A stretch of 32,000 nt of DNA from Vibrio alginolyticus NBRC 15630 = ATCC 17749 (GTDB taxonomy: Bacteria; Pseudomonadota; Gammaproteobacteria; Enterobacterales; Vibrionaceae). Positions 17,968 through 25,270 of the stretch are shown here, one piece after another. Within the stretch, counting starts at the first letter, position 1; the number at the start of each line of letters is the position of its first letter. A program made the translations under genes and the position numbers. The stretch is from contig NC_022349.1 of NCBI RefSeq assembly GCF_000354175.2, forward strand, positions 1,590,001 to 1,622,000, read 5' to 3'. The notes under the pieces are model-generated. The model did no database searches, had not been told where the DNA came from, and was given only the letters and a program-made list of their open reading frames with translations.

Positions 17968-18005
17968 CCTGCTGATACGCCAACTATTGAATCTAGATAA
18001 ACCAC

Positions 18006-18033
18006 GGGCACTCAAATACGAGTGCCCTTGCTT
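18006..18033 (+). terminator. Terminator-like hairpin after chrA
   Basis: The stem pairs gggcactc (18006-18013) with gagtgccc (18020-18027), followed by ttgctt, a weak U-tract. Confidence 0.55.
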
Positions 18034-18090
18034 AGATTAGATAGTGAAAACGGAACAGACCCCGATAAAAAGAGCATCACAAATTGTGAC

Positions 18091-18735
18091 TTAACTTCTC
18101 TCGGTTAAGCCATTGTTCATTCTTACCAACTTAACCGCATCATGACGAGAATGGACATCGAGTTTTTTGTACAACTTGTATATATGGCTTTTCACTGTAC
18201 TTTCAGATAAAAAAAGTCTTGAGGCAATTTGTTGATTTGAAATGCCGTACACAAGTAGCTCTAGAATCTGTTTTTCTCTGCATGTTAACTCATCATGCTG
18301 CTGTTCTTCGGACAAATTTGCATGCCGATAATTGAGGACTAACTTCTCTAGGTACATTCTTGGTAGCCACAACCCACCTTTCAGTACGTATTCCGCGCCA
18401 TCACATATATGTGTCACTGATGCACTTCGGAGCAAAATTCCTTTTAACAACTTCCAATGCAGTAAGTCCGTTTGTACTTTTTCACAAGGGACGTTGTGAA
18501 GCATAAAGGACCACCCAAATAGATCAAAATCTGGTAACTTTCCTTGTACTTCAAGCTGACGCATAAAATCGTAATCAATAAACATCAAATCGATACTGAG
18601 TGAGTGACTTCTGAACACCACTTCATCTGGTTGCATTATCTTTACATCGACATCATGAATGGAAGACAGCTGTTTTTTTATTAAGTTACTTTGTAAATTA
18701 CTCTCAGCTAGCAGTATCAAGTGCTTCTTTTCCAT
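18091..18735 (-). CDS. VpsT/CsgD-type LuxR-family regulator (receiver-like N-domain plus GerE HTH)
   Basis: The C-terminal HTH is LTCREKQILELLVYGISNQQIASRLFLSESTVKSHIYKLYKKL. The linker helix GGLWLPRMYLEKLVLNYR aligns from memory with VpsT MWLTRKLAQEYILHYR. The N-domain lacks the acidic pocket of true receivers. Confidence 0.8.
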   Translation of the reverse strand: MEKKHLILLAESNLQSNLIKKQLSSIHDVDVKIMQPDEVVFRSHSLSIDLMFIDYDFMRQLEVQGKLPDFDLFGWSFMLHNVPCEKVQTDLLHWKLLKGILLRSASVTHICDGAEYVLKGGLWLPRMYLEKLVLNYRHANLSEEQQHDELTCREKQILELLVYGISNQQIASRLFLSESTVKSHIYKLYKKLDVHSRHDAVKLVRMNNGLTERS

Positions 18736-19087
18736 AGTCCCACCACATTAACTTACCTGTTTCACCAACCCCCGTTAGAAAATTAATTGGGGATAGCAAA
18801 GAGAATTTATCTTCATTTTAAGTAGAAAATATAGCACTTCAGAATGATATCGCATTGCTTTTCAGCACCGAAAAAGACTTAAAAAGTATGAACATGTTAT
18901 ATTTTTATCCATACTTTTCAACCTGTGTTAGCATAAGGATATGATTTATAATATTAAATAATAAAGATAATAATTGGATAAAATACCATTTATAAAAAAT
19001 GGATGACTGCTCCGCTCAGTGCAATAGAACGAATTACTTCTTTATATTGGCTTCATTTCATACTTGATGAGTACTTAAAGTAAATAC

Positions 19088-19118
19088 AAAAAATAACATT
19101 ATGATTATGTTATTTTTT
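19088..19118. promoter_or_regulatory. Perfect 12-bp inverted repeat in the regulator/operon intergenic region
   Basis: aaaaaataacat (19088-19099), the spacer tatgatt, then atgttatttttt (19107-19118). It lies about 185 nt upstream of the first operon gene. The stem is all A/T, so an operator is more plausible than a terminator. Confidence 0.35.
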
Positions 19119-19303
19119 TCTTTAACACCTTAAAGAGACGCACCTAAATACTCCCTTCCAGCCTGAATCATTCTCAATAATGAGAACAGCTTTCACTGAT
19201 CCTTTCTTATAATTTCATCGCTTCCCACAACATTTGAAGGAAGCAGCAAGAAGTTAAGTGCAGTCATTTTTAATCAGGAATAACAGGAAATGGAGTAATC
19301 GTT

Positions 19304-20233
19304 ATGACTCTAAACAAAACAGGGCTTGCTTTAGCAATGTCAGCAATTTTATTTAGTGGCTCTCTAATCGCGAATGAGATCGATGATGGAGACGACAACA
19401 TGCAATGGACTGACAGCGCTAATACCGATATCGGTTTATCTGGCAGCTTCAATGATAACAGTGACAATAGCGCATCTCTCGGTGTTGGTGATAGCTTCAA
19501 CGACAACAGCGATAATAGTGCGTCACTAGGTATTGGTCATAGCTTCAACGACAACAGCGACACTGACAACAGTGCAACTCTTGGTGTTGATGACAGCTTT
19601 AATAACAACAGCGACAACTCAAACTCGAGCACTAACACAGCTCAAAGCCACAACGACAATAGTACGTCTAACGCTAACGACAACAGTACCAGTGCTGATC
19701 TTGATGTGAGCCTAAATAGTGATAGTAGTGATTCAAGTACTAACACAAATAGAAGCCACAACGACAACAGCGACTCTAGTACTACTGTAAGACGTAGCAA
19801 CAACGACAACAGTGACTCTAGTATCAACAGTAGCTTTAACGATAACAGCGATAATCGTAATCAAAGCGACAACCGTAACCAGAGTGATAACCGTAGCTAC
19901 GCTGATTCAAGCACAACAAACTCGAACAGCTTTAACGACAATAGTAACTATCAAAGTGACTCGAGCTCAACAAATGTTGATAGCTTCAATCAAGTCCATA
20001 TGGATACAGATATGGTTGTTGCGAGCTCAAGCCTAATGGGTGGTGTTACAGGTGCATCAGTTATTTATGCAACTAACGCGGATGATACTCGAGTTCGAGT
20101 TGAAAACATGAACACCCTTGGTGGTCTTGGTGGTGCGGCTGGTATTACTACCGTTGGTCAGAATGCTGGTTCAAATTCACTTGTACAACAATCTGTTACA
20201 ACTAATGCAAGTGTGTTTACTGGGGGTGAGTAA
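19304..20233 (+). CDS. Secreted N/D/S-rich repeat protein with Q/N/G-rich C-terminal motif (hypothetical; candidate fibre/matrix subunit)
   Basis: The RBS ggag lies 8 nt upstream. The signal peptide is MTLNKTGLALAMSAILFSGSLIA|NE. About 10 copies of S(F/H/N)N(D/N)NS(D) follow, then the C-terminal block LGGLGGAAGITTVGQNAGSNSLVQQSVTTNASV. Confidence 0.75.
   Translation: MTLNKTGLALAMSAILFSGSLIANEIDDGDDNMQWTDSANTDIGLSGSFNDNSDNSASLGVGDSFNDNSDNSASLGIGHSFNDNSDTDNSATLGVDDSFNNNSDNSNSSTNTAQSHNDNSTSNANDNSTSADLDVSLNSDSSDSSTNTNRSHNDNSDSSTTVRRSNNDNSDSSINSSFNDNSDNRNQSDNRNQSDNRSYADSSTTNSNSFNDNSNYQSDSSSTNVDSFNQVHMDTDMVVASSSLMGGVTGASVIYATNADDTRVRVENMNTLGGLGGAAGITTVGQNAGSNSLVQQSVTTNASVFTGGE
19445..19990 (+). 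repeat. In-frame degenerate tandem repeat array inside the 309-aa gene
   Basis: The first three units are clear at DNA level: 19445-19492 (48 nt), 19493-19540 (48 nt) and 19541-19594 (54 nt), each starting agcttcaa(t/c)ga(t/c)aacag(t/c)ga. Later units degenerate but keep the S-x-N-D-N-S core. Confidence 0.8.
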
Positions 20234-20253
20234 CCGACTAGTAGGAGAAAGCG

Positions 20254-20577
20254 ATGCGTTTGGCAATCTGTACTTTGAGTATGATAGTTGCCTGCACTGC
20301 ACTCGCTGATGACATTGCATTATCTGGCGGAGAAGTTAGCTTGGATATCATGAATGAATCAAGAGGTGGACAAAATGTTGAACTCGACTTGGTTTATGCA
20401 GAATCAGATATCAATGGTATTTCGTCAGATAATGTCGCGTCAAACACCGTGAGTGGTAACAATATACTATCAAGTGGAGCGTTCGCAGACAGTTCGGGTA
20501 TATCCAACGTAATTCAGAACAGCGGAAACAACGTTTTAATCCAGAACTCTACCGTCGTTAACCTGACACTCAAGTAA
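20254..20577 (+). CDS. Small secreted or lipidated protein ending in the shared Q/N/G motif (hypothetical; candidate nucleator/minor subunit)
   Basis: The RBS aggag lies 7 nt upstream. The N-terminus MRLAICTLSMIVAC fits a lipobox (I-V-A-C14), and an alternative SPase I site is TALA|DD. The C-terminus is SGISNVIQNSGNNVLIQNSTVVNLTLK. The gene starts 20 nt after the upstream gene. Confidence 0.65.
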   Translation: MRLAICTLSMIVACTALADDIALSGGEVSLDIMNESRGGQNVELDLVYAESDINGISSDNVASNTVSGNNILSSGAFADSSGISNVIQNSGNNVLIQNSTVVNLTLK

Positions 20578-20582
20578 ACAAT

Positions 20583-21260
20583 ATGAAAGTATTAAATAAC
20601 TTAATTTGGCTGATGCTCGTTTATTCAGCATCAGCCATTTCATTAGAACTGCTACCTTACCGAGCACATTACTCTGTTCCTGTTAAAAGCTACAAAGAAA
20701 TAGTGTTCGGTGATGTTTTTCGCCAACAGTATGACTTCAGCTGTGGCTCTGCCGCCCTGGCTTCTCTTCTCACTTTTCATTATGCAACAGAGTCATCTGA
20801 ACAAGATATCTTCAAAAGCATGTTTGAAAAAGGTGATAAAGAAAAAATCAAAGAGAAAGGTTTTTCTTTGTTGGATATGAAGTTTTACTTGGATTCCATA
20901 GGGTTACGTTCTGACGGCTTTCAAGTAGGACTGGAGAAAATTAAAGAAGTCGGCGTCCCTGGGATTACTCTCGTTAATTTCGACGGGTATATGCATTTTG
21001 TTGTCATCAGAGGTATAAACAATCACTCAGTTATTCTAGGAGACCCTTCTAGAGGAACCATGATAATGAAACTGGATGAGTTTGAAAAATATTACCAAGG
21101 AATTGTGTTACTGGTCCGTAACGAAGCGGAAATGGGAAGGTCTAGCTTTATAACCAATGATAATTTCACCGTATATCAAAGATCACCATTAAAAACAGGA
21201 GTGTCTAGAGATTCCTTAGGGGTATTTAGCATTACTCTCCCAGTTTCCGGTGAAAATTAA
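20583..21260 (+). CDS. Sec-exported stand-alone C39-family cysteine peptidase (FapD-like architecture)
   Basis: The signal peptide is MKVLNNLIWLMLVYSASA. The motifs are Q48-x5-C54 (QQYDFSCGSAALASLL), H138 (YMHFVVI) and D154 (ILGDPSRG). The H-to-D spacing of 16 and Q-to-C spacing of 6 match the ComA peptidase domain as I recall it. The gene starts 5 nt after the previous stop. No ABC-transporter domain is fused or adjacent. Confidence 0.85.
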   Translation: MKVLNNLIWLMLVYSASAISLELLPYRAHYSVPVKSYKEIVFGDVFRQQYDFSCGSAALASLLTFHYATESSEQDIFKSMFEKGDKEKIKEKGFSLLDMKFYLDSIGLRSDGFQVGLEKIKEVGVPGITLVNFDGYMHFVVIRGINNHSVILGDPSRGTMIMKLDEFEKYYQGIVLLVRNEAEMGRSSFITNDNFTVYQRSPLKTGVSRDSLGVFSITLPVSGEN

Positions 21261-21314
21261 TATAACATTGTTTTAAATAACTTTAAGAAATTAACAACCT
21301 GAAAGGCCTACATT

Positions 21315-21881
21315 ATGAACTACAATAAATTTTTGTTAGTGCTTTGTATGCTAATACCTCATTTTAATGTGAATGCTAAAGATGTTGGCCTGCAAGAACT
21401 TACTCCTCTTTCAAATTTATCTTTAGAAGAATATCGAGGTGGCTTCCAAATTACGGATGAGTATATTATTAATATTGGATTAAGCATTACTACGACTATA
21501 AATGGCGATGATATTTTGAACACAAACATTGCCAACTTAGTAATTGAAAATGGTAATTTAAAAAACATTAGCGCAAATAGTGAAAATCAAAGTGGAGATA
21601 TTTTCAACCAGGGTATTGTTAACATCATACAATTTGGTGAAGGAAATATTATTGGAGATGATTCTATAGATTCACCCAAAATGCCTTCGTCTCAAAATCC
21701 TAATATAATAAGTTCAGACTTTATAAATTCAAGTATTATCAATATTATTCAAAACACGAAAGATAACAGTATTATTGGACTTAGCACGCTCGTAGACATT
21801 GATGCTCAAGTAAATGGGGTAATACGGGAAATCAAAGCAAACCAACAATTAGAAGACGCCTTATTGAACCACCTTCAATGA
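21315..21881 (+). CDS. Secreted hypothetical protein with double-glycine-leader-like segment and two degenerate Q/N/G motifs
   Basis: The RBS aaagg is present. The signal peptide is MNYNKFLLVLCMLIPHFNVNA|KD, followed by LQELTPLSNLSLEEYRGG|F. It contains GIVNIIQFGEGNIIG and SIINIIQNTKDNSIIG. This is the most AT-rich gene of the operon. Confidence 0.62.
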   Translation: MNYNKFLLVLCMLIPHFNVNAKDVGLQELTPLSNLSLEEYRGGFQITDEYIINIGLSITTTINGDDILNTNIANLVIENGNLKNISANSENQSGDIFNQGIVNIIQFGEGNIIGDDSIDSPKMPSSQNPNIISSDFINSSIINIIQNTKDNSIIGLSTLVDIDAQVNGVIREIKANQQLEDALLNHLQ

Positions 21882-22064
21882 GCATTTCCATTTTTATCTG
21901 AAAAATTGTCACGTTAAGCTTCTTTGATATTAGAAACGACTGATATCTATGATTACATACCAAAAGAAAGGTAGATATATCAATAGGCCACCATCATTTT
22001 AAGAATATATACCTACTTTATCCAATATAATCCAATCAATTTATAATGCGAACACTAGGCGCTA

Positions 22065-22097
22065 ACGATAAATTAGGCCCAAGACTCAAGGGCCTAA
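22065..22097 (-). terminator. Rho-independent terminator downstream of the OM barrel gene
   Basis: The stem pairs ttaggccc (22073-22080) with gggcctaa (22090-22097). On the minus strand it is followed by TTTATCG. Confidence 0.6.
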
Positions 22098-22105
22098 TAT
22101 CCATT

Positions 22106-23101
22106 TTACAAATTAAAAGGTACTCGTACTGTTAATTGAAAGTCGGGAGTATCTTCTGTAAGACCAGCTTGAGCACTAACATTGATAGATGAGCGTTCAC
22201 TAAAGGCATAGTTTATACCAAAAGTTAATGCATCTAATTGAAGCAACTTAGCATCATCTGCCGATCTGCCATTTACTTTGCTTTTTAAAATAGTTTTATG
22301 GCTAAGTCCTAAAGAGAATGAAAGATCAGGATTCACCGCAAACCCCATTCCTCCTGAAAGAGAAATAGTGTCTCCAAGTTCAACATCAGCTTTTGTGTCG
22401 CCAACTGTAACAGTATCCTCTAAGTTATAAATATAACTTAGACTAGCGAACAAGACCGCAGGATCAACAGGGTGAATAAGAGATAAATTAGGCTCAAAAC
22501 TCCAAAAACCCGAACCTGTAGGGACATCACTAAATGAGTTGCTTCCATCTTCAATAGAAACATCATAAGGCGATCGTCCTGTATCCGACTTTACTCTAAG
22601 GCCACCTACCCAGTATGGCGCAGACTCAAAGTTAAACTGGTGCCTCAATGCGAACTCTACATCACCAAGCCCTCCGCCATCCACCGTTGTGTTTACTACT
22701 TCACTGTTTGAACCATCTTGAATGGGGCGCGTAGAAACTTGGTCATTACGATACACATACGGCACTCTAACTTCTAACTCTGTGGCGTTTGTTAAACCGT
22801 ACCGAGCAGTTAATCCAACGGTTACTGTAGTCCTATCCGAATCACTCACTTCAATTCGCCCAACAATCAGAGTTGGTAAGACTGTATACCCAACAACAGA
22901 TACTTTGTTTGAAGAGTTTTGTGTATAGCTTAAAGACGAATCAAATGACCATTTACCTTTAGGTGTGAGAACGCCTGGGCGCTCAATAACATCACCAACC
23001 GTTTGGGCGCGCTGAGGAATATCATCTCCTTCAGCACCATATGCATTCCCCGCAATGAATAAACTACAAAGATAGGTACCCAGTAAAGTCTTCCGTAACA
23101 T
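22106..23101 (-). CDS. Outer-membrane beta-barrel protein, 'transporter' / meta-pathway-phenol-degradation-like class (COG4313-like by appearance)
   Basis: I prefer the ATG at 23101 with the RBS AGGAAAG upstream; the track start at 23134 is a TTG. The signal peptide is MLRKTLLGTYLCSLFIAGNAYG|AEG. Amphipathic strands run throughout, with GGLGDVEFALRHQF and ELEVRVPYVYRND blocks that I associate with that barrel family. The family call needs HMM confirmation. Confidence 0.72.
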   Translation of the reverse strand: MLRKTLLGTYLCSLFIAGNAYGAEGDDIPQRAQTVGDVIERPGVLTPKGKWSFDSSLSYTQNSSNKVSVVGYTVLPTLIVGRIEVSDSDRTTVTVGLTARYGLTNATELEVRVPYVYRNDQVSTRPIQDGSNSEVVNTTVDGGGLGDVEFALRHQFNFESAPYWVGGLRVKSDTGRSPYDVSIEDGSNSFSDVPTGSGFWSFEPNLSLIHPVDPAVLFASLSYIYNLEDTVTVGDTKADVELGDTISLSGGMGFAVNPDLSFSLGLSHKTILKSKVNGRSADDAKLLQLDALTFGINYAFSERSSINVSAQAGLTEDTPDFQLTVRVPFNL

Positions 23102-23563
23102 CACATCTTTCCTTTTGCTGATGATCGTACCCAAGTAATCTCAGGCAATAGCTTGAGGTGAAGCTCCTAACTTTCCAAAGTAAGATTAGTATAGCTACTT
23201 CAAAACCACGACATACCTTTAAGTTTGGCGCTTTGAAGAAATTAGGAGACATTTATACTTATCTTCAACACTAAGCCACTAGTTAATAAATAATTAGGAT
23301 AGATTCTATGTTTTCGCAATATTATTAATAAAATAAATTGCTTACCTGTGCTCTTAGTATGAAGTCGATATGACATAACAGCTGAAAAGCCTGTTCTCTT
23401 TTGCGTAGCATCAATCACATTGCTTTTTTAGATCGAGTCGCTCCGACTTCAACCATAACTAACGCTATCTTCCCCACATATTTCATCAAAATGCATTCCC
23501 GTGTCGCGATTTAACATGCTAAAGTTAACAATGCGTTAACAATTATAAATACAATGAGAAGAC

Positions 23564-25270
23564 ATGGAGTCACTTAAAATGAATCAGCCGAATCTAAATA
23601 GCGCTGCTGGTTGCGCTCTCCCACCACCAAATGAAATGATCCTCAAATGGGCTCAAGAGCGTCCAAATGAGGTCTACCTAAAACAAATTATTAACCGACA
23701 ATTTGTTGAGTACACATTCTCTGATGTTGCAGATCAAGCCTTAAAACTTGTCAGCGCACTACGCTCACTTGGTGTAAAGCCTGGCGACAAAGTCGCATTA
23801 GTATCTAAAAACTGTGCAGAATGGTTTATTTGCGATCTTGCTATGATGCTTGGTGACTATGTCAGTGTGCCAATCTTTCCTACCGCCGGTGCAGACACCA
23901 TCGAATACTGTGTGACTCATAGTGAAAGTAAAGCGATCATTGGCGGAAAACTCGATGATCCCAAAGCAACTCAGCAAGTCATTGATGCTATGCCTGAACT
24001 CATTAGCATCGCTCTACCTTATGACACGGCACCAAAGTGTAAGCACGAATACCAAGCGCTCATTGCTGATGCAGTGCCAAGTAAAGAGCGTCCGCAGCAT
24101 TACGATGACAAGCTAATGTCGTTGGTGTATACCTCAGGCACATCAGGGTTACCGAAAGGCGCGATGCTAACTTACGGCGCATTCAGTTGGTCTGTTCAGC
24201 AACTGATCAATCATATTGGTATCCAAGAAAACGACCGATTGTTCTCTTATTTACCGCTCGCTCATATTACAGAGCGTGTTTATATCTTCGGTTCATCGAT
24301 TATGGGTGGCGTGCCAACAGCATTTCCAGAGTCACTGGACACTTTTATCGAAGATGTGAAGATGCACCGACCAACTCTGTTTATCTCCGTCCCACGATTA
24401 TGGACGCTATTCCAGCAACGTATTCAAGACAAACTTCCACAGAAGAAGCTCAATATTCTGTTGAAAATCCCATTCGTCAATTCTTTGATCAAGAAAAAGC
24501 TAGCAGATGGTCTAGGTTTAGATCAGGCTCGAGTATTAGGCTGTGGCTCTGCACCTGTCTCGCCAGCGCTGTTGGAATGGTACCACTCAGTGGGCCTTGA
24601 TATCACAGAGGCTTGGGGGATGACGGAATCATTTGCCTACTGCACGCTCAACTACCCATTTAGAGCTGACAAAATCGGTAGTGTCGGTAATGCAGGACCA
24701 GGCATTGAGTTAAAAATCGCAGCTGATGATGAAATCATGGTGCGTGGCAAAGGGCTATTTTCTGGCTACTACAAAAATGACATTGCCACCCAAGAGTCTT
24801 TTGATTCAGAGGGCTGGCTACACACAGGCGATATCGGCGCTATCGACTCAGATGGTTATCTAACGATTCAAGGCCGTAAAAAAGATAACTTCAAAACCGC
24901 CAAAGGTAAATTTGTCTCTCCGGTTCCTATCGAGAAAAAGCTTTTCGAGTACAGTCGCGTAGAGATGATGTGTCTCATCGGTTTAGGGCTACCCGCTCCG
25001 ATTCTTTTGGTTGTGCCACATGACTTCCCTAACTTTGATCGAGAGCGATACGCACGTACCACACGTAAAGTTATTGCCAGGATGAATCAAGAACTCGCCT
25101 CTCATGAGCAAATCAAAGGTGTGTTAATGATTAAAGAACCTTGGAGTATAGAAAATGGCGTACTGACGCCAACGCTTAAAATTAAACGTCATGTGCTCGA
25201 ACAAAAGTATCATGAGATAGGCCACAATTGGCCAAAAGATGAATTGGTCGTGTGGGAAGAAGACTTGTAA
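23564..25270 (+). CDS. AMP-dependent synthetase/ligase (long-chain acyl-CoA synthetase-like)
   Basis: It carries the adenylate-forming motifs YTSGTSGLPKGAMLTY, GWLHTGDIG and TPTLKIKR. An alternative start is the ATG at 23579 (MNQPNL). Confidence 0.88.
   Translation: MESLKMNQPNLNSAAGCALPPPNEMILKWAQERPNEVYLKQIINRQFVEYTFSDVADQALKLVSALRSLGVKPGDKVALVSKNCAEWFICDLAMMLGDYVSVPIFPTAGADTIEYCVTHSESKAIIGGKLDDPKATQQVIDAMPELISIALPYDTAPKCKHEYQALIADAVPSKERPQHYDDKLMSLVYTSGTSGLPKGAMLTYGAFSWSVQQLINHIGIQENDRLFSYLPLAHITERVYIFGSSIMGGVPTAFPESLDTFIEDVKMHRPTLFISVPRLWTLFQQRIQDKLPQKKLNILLKIPFVNSLIKKKLADGLGLDQARVLGCGSAPVSPALLEWYHSVGLDITEAWGMTESFAYCTLNYPFRADKIGSVGNAGPGIELKIAADDEIMVRGKGLFSGYYKNDIATQESFDSEGWLHTGDIGAIDSDGYLTIQGRKKDNFKTAKGKFVSPVPIEKKLFEYSRVEMMCLIGLGLPAPILLVVPHDFPNFDRERYARTTRKVIARMNQELASHEQIKGVLMIKEPWSIENGVLTPTLKIKRHVLEQKYHEIGHNWPKDELVVWEEDL

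What the first reader, a model, noticed from the sequence alone, without database searches (positions are those of the whole stretch)
18091..23101. Candidate Fap-like (non-curli) secreted fibre/matrix system: VpsT-type regulator, 4-gene secreted operon with periplasmic C39 peptidase, convergent OM barrel
Seen in sequence: four tightly spaced plus-strand genes (gaps of 20, 5 and 54 nt) all begin with Sec-type signal peptides. Three of them share a Q/N/G-rich motif and the fourth is a complete C39 peptidase. A CsgD/VpsT-type regulator lies divergently across a 570-bp AT-rich region. An OM beta-barrel gene converges on the operon end. Established knowledge: the Pseudomonas fapA-F amyloid operon combines repeat-bearing Q/N/G-rich subunits (FapB/C/E), a Sec-exported C39-like peptidase of about 226 aa (FapD; the gene here is 225 aa) and an OM barrel (FapF). 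Curli genes are controlled by the divergent regulator CsgD across an unusually long intergenic region. Vibrio matrix-protein loci sit next to VpsT-family regulators (brpT/cabABC and cpsQ/mfpABC, as I recall them). Inference: this is a divergent, compact Fap-like or novel extracellular fibre system. It differs from canonical fap in several ways. There is no obvious FapA. The subunits carry one motif copy instead of three. The major protein has a long D/N/S repeat spacer. The barrel lacks a coiled-coil N-domain and sits on the opposite strand.
Basis: partly seen in the sequence, partly recalled or inferred. Interest (0 to 1): 0.85.

Follow-up and report, generated by a model that had tools for sequence, protein, structure and literature searches.

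The report
Uncharacterised sister of Fap amyloid system
This Vibrio alginolyticus gene cluster encodes an unstudied sister of the Pseudomonas Fap amyloid-fibre export system (a regulator, three secreted Q/N-rich subunits, a periplasmic peptidase and an outer-membrane pore), and the same cluster occurs across many marine bacteria.

Summary
All six genes sit at the stated coordinates with the stated gaps, signal peptides and shared motif.

**Homology to Fap**
- The peptidase is FapD-like (NCBIfam E=2e-41).
- The barrel is FapF-like (E=3e-50). Its best solved structure is FapF 5O67, and it lacks the coiled-coil N-domain.
- D188 is a remote FapE relative.
- The motif ending A309 and B107 is a divergent Fap repeat. 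It aligns over all 39 columns of the published FapB/C repeat profile. No column-permuted control (0 of 150) reached that score. Multi-repeat alphaproteobacterial members bridge the two.

**Not canonical Fap**
- All scores fall well below family cut-offs.
- In two Halomonadaceae loci this cluster lies beside a true fap operon (fapF beyond the fetched DNA), so it is a paralogous system.

**Distribution**
- C39, D-like and barrel genes co-occur in 58 of 62 loci with complete flanks.
- The subunit family has about 1,500 clusters at 50% identity and is unannotated or misnamed.

**New point**
- The FapE-like protein carries a canonical double-glycine leader directly after its Sec signal. This points to the long-sought substrate of FapD-type peptidases.

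Fibre or amyloid formation is inferred, not shown. AlphaFold models were uninformative. Verdict: a new variant of a known kind.

The parts
18091..18735 (-). VpsT/CsgD-family regulator (non-canonical receiver domain plus LuxR-type HTH). It carries WLPR at residues 123-126 where VpsT has its c-di-GMP motif WLTR.
   Evidence: Pfam GerE 8e-20 and VpsT-like_REC 39 bits (cut-off 27). NCBIfam CsgD 102 bits, below the cut-off of 250. Best PDB hit is VpsT 3KLN, E=7e-20, full length, with WLPR aligned to WLTR. WLPR is conserved in all 8 Vibrio orthologues. The gene is divergent and adjacent in 8 of 8 Vibrio loci and absent in Photobacterium.
18736..19303 (.). 568-bp AT-rich divergent intergenic region, presumed to hold the promoters and control sites.
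   Evidence: GC 31% against 44.6% for the rest of the window. The sigma-70 consensus scan showed no enrichment over shuffles, so no promoter is assigned.
19304..20233 (+). A309, the FapC-like long subunit. It has a Sec signal (residues 1-23), a D/N/S-rich tandem-repeat spacer, and one C-terminal core domain that ends in a single Fap-type repeat (about residues 265-303, nt 20096-20212).
   Evidence: Composition S 21%, N 17%, D 13%. DNA tandem repeats of 48, 42 and 18 bp. The C-terminal domain is homologous to B107. No Pfam or NCBIfam family. Long homologues elsewhere have 1 to about 10 repeats.
20254..20577 (+). B107, the FapB-like minimal subunit. It has a Sec signal (1-18), a leader-like segment ending in SRGG (residues 19-39, nt 20308-20370), and a core domain with one Fap-type repeat (residues 67-105, nt 20452-20568).
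   Evidence: hhalign against the published FapB/C repeat profile aligns 39 of 39 columns, P=5.7e-4. None of 150 column-permuted controls reached that score. hhalign against alphaproteobacterial repeats gives P=5e-12. R37 and G38 are conserved in at least 90% of 71 homologues. The family has 1,501 clusters at 50% identity.
20583..21260 (+). Sec-exported (periplasmic) C39 cysteine peptidase, a paralogue of FapD.
   Evidence: Pfam Peptidase_C39 5e-21. NCBIfam FapD 141.6 bits against a cut-off of 330; FilB 101.5 bits. Canonical FapD in the same genomes scores 283-284 bits, while the local paralogue scores 131-135. Best PDB hits are double-glycine proteases 6MPZ and PCAT1. Cys54, His138 and Asp154 are invariant.
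21315..21881 (+). D188, the FapE-like subunit. It has a Sec signal (1-21), a canonical double-glycine leader (residues 22-43, nt 21378-21443, ending in YRGG|F), a beta-rich middle, and two Q/N motifs. The second motif (residues 139-166, nt 21729-21812) is homologous to the B107 repeat.
   Evidence: The D-family HMM hits canonical FapE at E=0.0016. hhalign against FapE gives P=5.6e-5. FapE is the only recurrent NCBIfam hit among 52 members. Leader conservation in 74 homologues: G-1 97%, G-2 95%, R-3 100%, hydrophobic at -4 84%, -7 99% and -12 93%. Motif shared with the B family at P=1.7e-12.
22106..23101 (-). FapF-like outer-membrane barrel without the N-terminal coiled-coil domain, convergent on the operon. 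An alternative TTG start lies at 23134.
   Evidence: NCBIfam FapF 2.8e-50, 171 bits (cut-off 700), aligned to model positions 89-418 of 420. PDB FapF 5O67 at E=3e-38, query residues 35-340 against chain residues 11-332. Pfam Phenol_MetA_deg 42 bits. A barrel gene lies within 6 kb of the C39 gene in 61 of 62 loci with complete flanks.

Best explanation
The cluster encodes a Fap-type, two-step secretion and assembly system for extracellular Q/N-rich repeat proteins. It is a paralogous sister of the Pseudomonas fapABCDEF functional-amyloid system.

Shown by homology:
- A Sec-exported C39 peptidase related to FapD.
- An outer-membrane barrel related to the FapF membrane domain.
- A FapE-like protein (D188).
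- Two subunits (A309, B107) whose shared C-terminal domain ends in one divergent Fap repeat.
- A divergent VpsT/CsgD-family regulator.

Inferred mechanism:
1. All five structural proteins cross the inner membrane through Sec.
2. In the periplasm the subunits stay unfolded.
3. The C39 peptidase recognises the amphipathic double-glycine leader that follows the signal peptide of D188, and probably the weaker one of B107. It cuts after Gly-Gly.
4. This licenses or primes export through the FapF-like pore.
5. Outside the cell the repeat domains stack as cross-beta layers. Each A309 or B107 molecule contributes one layer of about 65-70 residues, instead of the three layers per FapC molecule.
6. B107 and/or D188 act as nucleator or tip.
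7. The acidic D/N/S spacer of A309 is displayed on the fibre surface.
8. The VpsT-like regulator couples expression to the biofilm programme.
For: Component homology:
- FapD and FapF are the best NCBIfam families for the peptidase and the barrel.
- FapF is the barrel's best solved structure, with end-to-end coverage of the crystallised membrane domain.
- The peptidase has an intact catalytic triad, a signal peptide and no ABC transporter fusion.
- D188 is linked to FapE three ways: HMM E=0.0016, hhalign P=5.6e-5, and FapE as the only recurrent weak NCBIfam hit. A full-length alignment shows the same motif order.

Repeat homology:
- B family against the published FapB/C profile: 39 of 39 columns, P=5.7e-4.
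- Alphaproteobacterial multi-repeat members of the same clusters against that profile: P=2.5e-6, probability 89%. The same members against the B family: P=5e-12, probability 97.5%. All three alignments are in one register.
- No column-permuted profile (0 of 150) reached either real score.

Double-glycine leader:
- The D family shows hydrophobic residues at -4, -7 and -12, Glu at -8 and GG at -2/-1. From my own knowledge this matches the bacteriocin leader consensus.
- Rouse et al. 2017 (PMC5557850) showed that FapD activity is needed for FapC secretion. They also found that FapE alone loses its N-terminus.

Co-occurrence and context:
- All five genes are present in 21 of 21 Vibrionaceae loci.
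- C39, D-like and barrel genes occur together in 58 of 62 loci with complete flanks, across Gamma- and Alphaproteobacteria and Desulfobacterota.
- Six complete chromosomes show identical organisation.
- VpsT-family regulators are also linked to the cluster in Halomonadaceae.
- One FapC layer spans 62-72 residues (PMC12459412), similar to the shared A309/B107 core.
Against: - No experiment exists for any member. I found no paper on this cluster type.
- The three subunits hit no Pfam family and no NCBIfam FapB, FapC or FapE model.
- The published FapB/C repeat HMM scores them at about 0 bits, and one of its four invariant positions (N21) is not kept.
- The direct profile-profile link is modest: probability 29% for B against the Fap repeat, and 66% for D against FapE.
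- AlphaFold2 gave low-confidence, mostly unstructured models: B107 pLDDT 55, D188 pLDDT 39. No beta-solenoid is predicted.
- A309 has no double-glycine leader.
- The B family lacks the hydrophobic -4 residue, and its second Gly is variable.
- The barrel lacks the coiled coil that Rouse et al. suggested recruits substrates in FapF.
- The regulator has WLPR instead of W[F/L/M][T/S]R, so c-di-GMP control is uncertain.
Confidence: 0.62

Rival explanations
1. The Fap-type export machinery is real, but the products are not amyloid fibres. The subunits would be soluble or surface-attached matrix or adhesin proteins exported through the FapF-like pore. A309 would be a highly acidic D/N/S-rich cation- or surface-binding protein, and the Q/N motif would serve only as an export or anchoring tag.
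For: AlphaFold predicts no stable beta-solenoid. Each subunit has only one repeat. The low-complexity acidic spacer dominates A309. The conserved C-terminal position of the motif fits a secretion or anchor signal.
Against: The motif is homologous, and in the same register, to the amyloid-core repeat of FapB/C. Related members carry up to about 10 tandem copies, as structural amyloids do. B107 is little more than leader plus repeat domain, which leaves no passenger to display.
Confidence: 0.22
2. The cluster is a microcin- or bacteriocin-like peptide export locus. Small Gly/Ser/Asn-rich peptides with double-glycine leaders would be matured by the C39 peptidase and released through the barrel as antagonistic or signalling peptides.
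For: The C39 domain is closest in the PDB to double-glycine bacteriocin proteases. D188 has a canonical GG leader and B107 a partial one. Several database entries call the peptidase 'bacteriocin resistance protein'. Single D-like members hit GG-leader RiPP or bacteriocin models very weakly.
Against: There is no ABC transporter, immunity gene or modification enzyme in the cluster. The precursors carry Sec signals and the peptidase is periplasmic, as in Fap. Long multi-repeat subunits of 300-870 aa are unlike microcins. The barrel is FapF-like. The linked regulator is of the biofilm VpsT/CsgD type.
Confidence: 0.07
3. The genes are functionally unrelated neighbours. The barrel would be a COG4313/MetA-type uptake channel for hydrophobic compounds, which happens to lie next to an acyl-CoA synthetase gene. 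B107 would be a 'carbon storage regulator', as NCBI names it.
For: Pfam places the barrel in Phenol_MetA_deg. It is on the opposite strand and adjacent to an AMP-binding acyl-CoA ligase gene. NCBI and UniRef name B107 homologues 'carbon storage regulator'.
Against: A barrel gene lies within 6 kb of the C39 gene in 61 of 62 loci with complete flanks, despite changing strand and side. It scores far better on FapF (171 bits; PDB E=3e-38) than on the generic family (42 bits). B107 has a signal peptide and no CsrA domain.
Confidence: 0.03

Closest known systems
Pseudomonas Fap functional amyloid system (fapABCDEF; Dueholm 2010/2013, Rouse 2017)
   Same: Sec-dependent export. A periplasmic C39 peptidase (FapD-like). 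A FapF-type outer-membrane barrel. A FapE-like protein with a processed-looking N-terminus. Q/N/G-rich subunits built on a 39-residue repeat that aligns in register. No ATPase or other energiser in the cluster.
   Different: It is a paralogous clade. FapD scores are 131-142 bits against about 284 for true FapD in the same genomes. The major subunits have one repeat instead of three. There is no FapA. The long subunit gene comes before the short one. The barrel has no coiled-coil domain and is transcribed convergently. The FapE-like and B subunits have an explicit double-glycine leader. The linked regulator is VpsT/CsgD-type. It coexists beside a canonical fap operon (fapA-E seen; fapF lies beyond the fetched DNA) in two Halomonadaceae.
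Vibrio brasiliensis LMG 20546 'Fap' variant (Dueholm et al. 2013, PMC3792158, Table S1)
   Same: The only Vibrio Fap-like operon in the literature. It has no FapA, a one-repeat 'FapB' and a many-repeat 'FapC' (16). This resembles the range of 1 to about 10 repeats seen in this clade.
   Different: I could not fetch that locus, so whether it belongs to the same clade is untested. V. campbellii ATCC BAA-1116 carries a B107 homologue (VIBHAR_03495), yet neither it nor V. alginolyticus appears in that survey's table. The authors treated non-Fap hits of their FapD and FapF HMMs as false positives from larger families.
Curli (csgBAC / csgDEFG)
   Same: Extracellular Q/N-rich repeat fibre subunits exported unfolded after Sec. 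A nucleator plus a major subunit. A divergent CsgD-family regulator across a long AT-rich intergenic region.
   Different: There are no CsgG, CsgE or CsgF homologues. The pore is a FapF-type barrel, and a C39 peptidase is present. I found no sequence relation of the subunits to CsgA or CsgB (no Pfam curlin hit).
Acinetobacter baumannii Fil 'putative pilus' operon (NCBIfam FilB, FilC)
   Same: Another uncharacterised cluster that pairs a C39 peptidase with a FapF-related barrel. Both window proteins hit these models second best.
   Different: The scores are much lower than for FapD and FapF (101 against 142 bits; 56 against 171 bits) and far below the cut-offs of 475 and 630. At E<=1, NCBIfam returned no Fil family for A309, B107 or D188. 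Whether that library holds models for the other Fil proteins was not checked.
Double-glycine leader peptide exporters (PCAT/AMS ABC transporters with an N-terminal C39 domain)
   Same: The same peptidase fold and catalytic residues. The D188 leader matches the consensus: L at -12, S/D at -11, E at -8, L at -7, hydrophobic at -4, GG at -2/-1.
   Different: The peptidase is free-standing and Sec-exported, not fused to a cytoplasmic-face ABC transporter. The leader sits behind a Sec signal peptide, so processing would occur in the periplasm.
VpsT / Scr (CpsQ, CpsS, ScrO, ScrP) / BrpT regulators of Vibrio matrix loci
   Same: The same two-domain architecture. Best PDB hit is VpsT.
   Different: The motif is WLPR instead of W[F/L/M][T/S]R. 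The controlled locus is Fap-like rather than a type I secreted calcium-binding protein. It is probably not the ScrP orthologue, because VP2710 neighbours galU.

Membership tests
Fap system (fapABCDEF) | FapF: trimeric outer-membrane barrel with plug helix, preceded by a periplasmic coiled-coil domain. | tested here: inconclusive
   The membrane domain is clearly homologous (NCBIfam FapF E=2.8e-50; PDB 5O67 E=3e-38). The score of 171 bits is below the equivalog cut-off of 700. Model positions 1-88 (coiled coil and linker) have no counterpart. Trimer formation cannot be tested here.
Fap system (fapABCDEF) | FapD: Sec-exported C39 cysteine peptidase with catalytic Cys and His. | tested here: inconclusive
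   The domain, signal peptide and Cys54/His138/Asp154 are all present. The score of 141.6 bits is below the cut-off of 330 and covers only model positions 3-178 of 224. True FapD in L062 and L048 scores 283-284 bits over the full length. The window protein is therefore a paralogue, not an orthologue.
Fap system (fapABCDEF) | FapB and FapC: subunits with three imperfect 39-residue repeats that match the FapB/C repeat HMM. | tested here: not met
   The published FapBCrep HMM scores about 0 bits on A309, B107 and D188. NCBIfam FapB and FapC give no hit. Each subunit has one repeat. Remote homology of that one repeat is supported only by profile-profile comparison.
Fap system (fapABCDEF) | FapE: minor fibre subunit with a processed N-terminus and a Q/N-rich C-terminal part. 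| tested here: inconclusive
   D188 gives no NCBIfam FapE hit. The family HMM reaches canonical FapE at E=0.0016. hhalign gives P=5.6e-5, probability 66%. Three of 52 family members hit the FapE model. Motif order and gene position (directly after the peptidase) are the same.
Fap system (fapABCDEF) | FapA chaperone-like protein as the first gene. | tested here: not met
   There is no further ORF of 50 aa or more between the regulator and A309. Dueholm 2013 reports that fapA is often deleted in accepted Fap systems, so this feature is weakly diagnostic.
Fap system (fapABCDEF) | Products form SDS-insoluble, ThT-binding cross-beta fibrils. | not testable with these tools
   This needs experiment. 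AlphaFold models had too low confidence to inform on it.
Curli (Csg) | CsgG secretion channel with CsgE and CsgF, and curlin-repeat subunits CsgA and CsgB. | tested here: not met
   No Pfam or NCBIfam hit to any Csg structural protein. Only the regulator resembles CsgD (102 bits, cut-off 250).
VpsT/CsgD-family c-di-GMP-responsive regulators | VpsT-like receiver domain plus GerE HTH. | tested here: met
   Pfam VpsT-like_REC 39.1 bits (cut-off 27) and GerE 70.7 bits. VpsT 3KLN at E=7e-20 over the full length.
VpsT/CsgD-family c-di-GMP-responsive regulators | c-di-GMP binding motif W[F/L/M][T/S]R. | tested here: not met
   WLPR at residues 123-126 aligns to VpsT WLTR. Pro is conserved in all Vibrio orthologues. 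Cluster-linked regulators in Halomonadaceae have WMSR. Actual binding cannot be tested here.
Acinetobacter Fil putative pilus system | FilB peptidase and FilC barrel at NCBIfam thresholds. | tested here: not met
   FilB 101.5 bits (cut-off 475) and FilC 55.8 bits (cut-off 630). Both are second to the Fap models.
Double-glycine leader / C39 processing systems | Substrate leader with hydrophobic residues at -4, -7 and -12 and Gly-Gly at -2/-1, plus a C39 peptidase. | tested here: met
   D family (74 sequences): GG 95-97%, hydrophobic at -4 84%, at -7 99%, at -12 93%, Glu at -8 54%. The B family matches only partly. Cleavage itself is untested. There is no fused ABC transporter.
CsrA (carbon storage regulator), the database name of B107 homologues | CsrA RNA-binding domain in a cytoplasmic protein of about 60 aa. 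| tested here: not met
   No CsrA hit in Pfam or NCBIfam. B107 has a signal peptide and a Fap-type repeat.

The most novel reading that the evidence does not exclude
This would be a distinct, widespread class of bacterial functional amyloid with two unusual features. First, each fibre layer would be a separate polypeptide: one Fap-type repeat domain per subunit, with A309 adding a long acidic surface brush. Second, export would be licensed by a tandem 'Sec signal plus double-glycine leader', with the leader removed in the periplasm by a free-standing C39 peptidase. That would identify the long-unknown substrate and recognition rule of FapD-type peptidases. It would also add a protein fibre to the Vibrio biofilm matrix, possibly under VpsT-family control.
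Probability: 0.35. Interest if true: 0.8.

Novelty: new variant of a known kind. Interest (0 to 1): 0.62.

Why it matters
**Vibrio biofilm matrix.** From my own knowledge, Vibrio matrices are described in terms of polysaccharide plus RbmA/Bap1/RbmC or CabA/MfpA-type proteins. A Fap-type fibre would be a new matrix component in V. alginolyticus, V. campbellii, V. owensii, V. fluvialis, strains labelled V. parahaemolyticus, Photobacterium, and many Halomonas, Marinobacter and alphaproteobacterial lineages.

**Gap in the Fap model.** Rouse et al. 2017 showed that FapD proteolysis is essential for secretion but could not name its target or motif. Here the FapE-like protein carries a textbook double-glycine leader that is 95-100% conserved at the RGG. 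This makes the hypothesis 'FapD-type peptidases remove a GG leader from FapE-type proteins' directly testable.

**Repeat number.** One-repeat subunits and relatives with about 10 repeats sit in the same gene context. They offer a natural series for asking how repeat number sets nucleation and stability of functional amyloids.

**Annotation.** The family (about 1,500 clusters at 50% identity) has no Pfam or NCBIfam model. It is currently labelled 'hypothetical protein', 'transporter', 'bacteriocin resistance protein' or, wrongly, 'carbon storage regulator'.

Tried and rejected
**Structure prediction**
- AlphaFold2 with alignments gave B107 pLDDT 55 and D188 pLDDT 39.
- Both models are too poor for fold comparison, so I ran no fold search. 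The result neither supports nor refutes a beta-solenoid.

**Direct family searches**
- Pfam and NCBIfam on A309, B107 and D188 returned nothing meaningful.
- Pfam on eight long A-like homologues returned nothing.
- The FapB/C repeat HMM from Dueholm 2013, rebuilt from the paper's supplement, scores about 0 bits on the window proteins.

**Promoter and terminator scan**
- The scan of 18000-23600 found no more promoter-like or terminator-like sites than in shuffled sequence, so no site is claimed.

**Literature**
- Searches on FapF/FapD with Vibrio, Fil, Fap-like, VIBHAR_03492-97, VP2706-12 and 'regulator of csgAB operon' found no paper on this cluster type.
- Kimbrough 2020 (PMC7043675) is not held.

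**Is the regulator ScrP (VP2710)?**
- Probably not. VP2711 is annotated as UTP-glucose-1-phosphate uridylyltransferase (galU), and no such gene was called in the ±7 kb around the regulator.
- The question is left open.

**Is A309 hypervariable?**
- Rejected for this lineage. The protein is identical in six complete chromosomes.

**Not done**

Full report

Yes. The ORF list gives these genes:
- a 214-aa regulator at 18091-18735(-);
- four plus-strand genes at 19304-20233 (A309), 20254-20577 (B107), 20583-21260 (C39 peptidase, 225 aa) and 21315-21881 (D188), separated by 20, 5 and 54 nt;
- a convergent barrel gene at 22106-23101(-), or 23134 if the upstream TTG is used.

The divergent intergenic region is 568 bp at 31% GC. 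The whole cluster is 38.0% GC, against 44.6% for the rest of the window.

Each of the five non-regulator proteins begins with a basic residue, a hydrophobic core and an AXA-like site. No signal-peptide predictor was available, so this is read from the sequence.

Public gene calls on six complete ~3.3-Mb chromosomes show the same six genes, the same lengths and 99.4-99.8% nucleotide identity. The organism is Vibrio alginolyticus or a very close relative (99% identical peptidase).

**2. The shared motif is not chance.**
- A309 and B107 align at BLASTP E=0.001 over their last 32 residues.
- Iterated HMMs started from the A309 tail and from B107 converge on the same 82 ORFs in 80 related loci.
- Profile-profile comparison of the B and D families gives P=1.7e-12 (probability 97.7%). 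It aligns B107 residues 81-107 with D188 residues 139-166.

Alignments show that A309 and B107 share a core domain of about 65-70 residues. It ends in ...F..(A/S)SGI(S/T).V.QN(A/S)G.N.L(I/V)Q(Q/N)S... In A309 this core follows a ~210-residue D/N/S-rich spacer built from 48-, 42- and 18-bp tandem repeats.

**3. What the recognisable proteins are.**

*Peptidase.*
- Pfam assigns Peptidase_C39 (E=5e-21).
- The best NCBIfam model is FapD: 141.6 bits, E=2e-41, model positions 3-178 of 224, cut-off 330. The Acinetobacter FilB model is second at 101.5 bits.
- Cys54, His138 and Asp154 are invariant in 30 homologues.
- The nearest solved structures are double-glycine leader proteases, LahT150 (6MPZ) and PCAT1.

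*Barrel.*
- Pfam assigns Phenol_MetA_deg (42 bits).
- NCBIfam FapF fits much better: 171 bits, E=3e-50, model positions 89-418 of 420.
- The only PDB matches are the FapF membrane-domain crystal structures (5O67, E=3e-38; query residues 35-340 against chain residues 11-332).

*Regulator.*
- It has a GerE HTH and a VpsT-like receiver domain.
- Its best NCBIfam hit is CsgD, at 102 bits, below the cut-off of 250.
- It aligns over its full length with VpsT 3KLN at E=7e-20.
- Its WLPR aligns with VpsT's c-di-GMP motif WLTR. The proline is conserved in all Vibrio orthologues.

**4. Are the three motif proteins Fap subunits?**

By direct HMM tests, no.
- None hits Pfam or the NCBIfam FapB, FapC or FapE models.
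- I rebuilt the FapB/C repeat HMM published by Dueholm et al. 2013 from the paper's supplement. It scores the window proteins at about 0 bits.
- The same HMM scores true FapB and FapC in two fetched Halomonadaceae loci at 85-108 bits.

By profile-profile comparison, remote homology is supported.
- The B family aligns with the published repeat profile over all 39 columns, exactly at the C-terminal motif (B107 residues 67-105), with P=5.7e-4.
- Alphaproteobacterial members of the same gene clusters provide a bridge. L071 (876 aa) and L027 (674 aa) carry 9-10 tandem repeats of the form F.G..GI..VQQNNG..NA.
- Those repeats match the canonical Fap profile at P=2.5e-6 (probability 89%) and the Vibrio B family at P=5e-12 (probability 97.5%), always in the same register.
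- As a control for Q/N/G-rich composition, I permuted the columns of the Fap profile 150 times. No permutation reached the real score. The real scores were 18.1 and 23.6, against 8.2 ± 1.8 for permutations.

D188 is linked to FapE.
- The family HMM finds the canonical FapE of L062 at E=0.0016 among 7,110 ORFs.
- hhalign gives P=5.6e-5 (probability 66%) on the N-terminal motif.
- FapE is the only NCBIfam family hit by more than two of 52 D-like proteins.
- A full-length alignment shows the same order of motifs.

**5. It is a paralogous system, not a diverged fap operon.**

In L062 (Aidingimonas) and L048 (Billgrantia), a cluster of this type lies about 2-5 kb from a canonical fap operon. The cluster comprises a long G-rich subunit, a short subunit, a C39 peptidase, a D-like gene and a convergent barrel. 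The fetched DNA shows fapA-E, or at least fapB-D; fapF lies beyond it. A sigma-54-type activator and VpsT-like regulators sit between the two.

In those genomes the true FapD scores 283-284 bits over the whole model. The peptidase of the second cluster scores 131-135 bits, like the window protein. The two systems therefore coexist and presumably do different jobs.

**6. Distribution.**
- phmmer finds all five structural genes in 21 of 21 Vibrionaceae loci. The regulator is found in Vibrio only. Photobacterium has the barrel upstream and usually three subunit genes.
- Of 62 loci with at least 3.5 kb on both sides, 58 have C39, D-like and barrel genes together. A barrel gene lies within 6 kb in 61.
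- Hosts include Halomonas, Marinobacter, Thioalkalivibrio, Rhodospirillales, Paracoccaceae, Desulfopila and Geomesophilobacter.
- A profile of the B family finds 1,501 clusters at 50% identity with E<=1e-3, and 1,101 with E<=1e-10, among 1.84 billion representatives. Most are proteins of 100-170 aa. A few have 7-11 repeats.
- Sources name these proteins 'hypothetical protein', 'transporter', 'bacteriocin resistance protein' or 'carbon storage regulator'. The last name has no support.

**7. A double-glycine leader.**

The most conserved feature of the D family is ...(L/V)(S/D)..E(L/M)..(L/M)RGG|F, directly after the Sec signal peptide. In D188 this spans residues 22-43. Counting from the Gly-Gly across 74 homologues:

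| Position | Residue | Frequency |
|---|---|---|
| -1 | G | 97% |
| -2 | G | 95% |
| -3 | R | 100% |
| -4 | hydrophobic | 84% |
| -7 | hydrophobic | 99% |
| -8 | E | 54% |
| -12 | hydrophobic | 93% |

From my own knowledge, this is the consensus of the double-glycine leaders cut by C39 domains of bacteriocin exporters.

B107 has a weaker version. R37 and G38 are conserved in at least 90% of homologues, with hydrophobic residues at -7 and -12 but not at -4. A309 has none.

Rouse et al. 2017 (PMC5557850) reported four relevant points:
- FapD's catalytic cysteine is required for FapC secretion.
- Its substrate is unknown.
- Fap proteins lack a canonical C39 site.
- FapE alone loses its N-terminal ~70 residues.

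The present family makes that link explicit.

**8. Proposed mechanism (inferred).**
1. Sec exports all components.
2. The periplasmic peptidase removes the GG leader of D188, and perhaps of B107.
3. The subunits pass unfolded through the FapF-like pore.
4. Outside, the repeat domains stack as cross-beta layers.

[quoted passage not shown] The shared A309/B107 core is about one layer long, so each molecule would supply one layer. A309 would decorate the fibre with its acidic spacer. The VpsT-like regulator would tie expression to the biofilm programme. Its WLPR motif leaves c-di-GMP dependence open.

**9. Weaknesses.**
- No member has been studied, and all my literature searches for this cluster type were empty.
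- AlphaFold2 models were of low confidence, so I did not use fold searches.
- The direct links to the FapB/C repeat and to FapE are statistically modest. They gain weight only through the bridging repeats, the common register, the permutation control and the gene context.

Alternatives: non-amyloid matrix or adhesin proteins exported by the same machinery, which I rate about 0.2, or microcin-like peptides, about 0.07. Chance adjacency of unrelated genes is essentially excluded by the co-occurrence data.

**10. Novelty.**

Dueholm et al. 2013 listed a single Vibrio Fap system (V. brasiliensis), with a one-repeat FapB, a 16-repeat FapC and no FapA. They treated the many extra FapD and FapF HMM hits as false positives from larger families.

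V. campbellii ATCC BAA-1116 carries a B107 homologue (VIBHAR_03495) but is not in their table. The cluster type was therefore not recognised there.

I rate it a new variant of a known kind: a Fap-paralogous system with one-repeat subunits, an explicit GG leader, a truncated pore and a VpsT-type regulator.

Noticed in passing
window 20254-20577 (B107) and its homologues P0175-P0259: NCBI and UniRef name most Vibrio and Photobacterium homologues 'carbon storage regulator'. The protein has a signal peptide, no CsrA domain and a Fap-type repeat, so this looks like a propagated misannotation.
   Followed up: yes
L062:6260-16423 and L048:6079-15811: In two Halomonadaceae the query-type cluster lies 2-5 kb from a canonical fapABCDE operon. 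A sigma-54-type activator and VpsT-like regulators (WMSR motif) sit between the two. These are two paralogous fibre systems side by side.
   Followed up: partly
L071:4733-7363 and L027:5438-7462: The alphaproteobacterial 'A-like' subunits are proteins of 674-876 aa with 9-10 tandem repeats (F.G..GI..VQQNNG..NA). They bridge the Vibrio one-repeat motif and the canonical Fap repeat.
   Followed up: yes
L007-L019 (Photobacterium loci), subunit genes upstream of the C39 gene: Photobacterium clusters carry up to three subunit genes. Their variable loop holds a conserved YGGACC motif with two adjacent cysteines, which is absent from the Vibrio proteins. The barrel gene lies upstream on the opposite strand, and no VpsT-like regulator is adjacent.
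   Followed up: no
window 18091-23134: The cluster is 38.0% GC against 44.6% for the rest of the window. D188 and both intergenic regions are at 31-32%. This may reflect horizontal acquisition or simply the N/I/K-rich coding content.
   Followed up: partly
window 18091-18735 (regulator): The c-di-GMP motif position reads WLPR, not W[F/L/M][T/S]R, in every Vibrio orthologue. I could not settle whether this gene corresponds to V. parahaemolyticus ScrP (VP2710). Synteny argues against it, because VP2711 is annotated as UTP-glucose-1-phosphate uridylyltransferase (galU).
   Followed up: partly
protein clusters of the barrel and the regulator: Short fragments of these Vibrio proteins (64 and 76 aa, on contigs of 231-253 bp) are deposited under Escherichia coli. 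This is probably contamination in those assemblies. Many members are labelled V. parahaemolyticus, so the cluster may occur in some strains of that species.
   Followed up: no
window 19304-20233 (A309): The exact A309 sequence was reported as absent from the 15-billion-protein collection. Yet six complete chromosomes encode an identical 309-aa protein. The look-up table seems incomplete for this low-complexity protein.
   Followed up: partly
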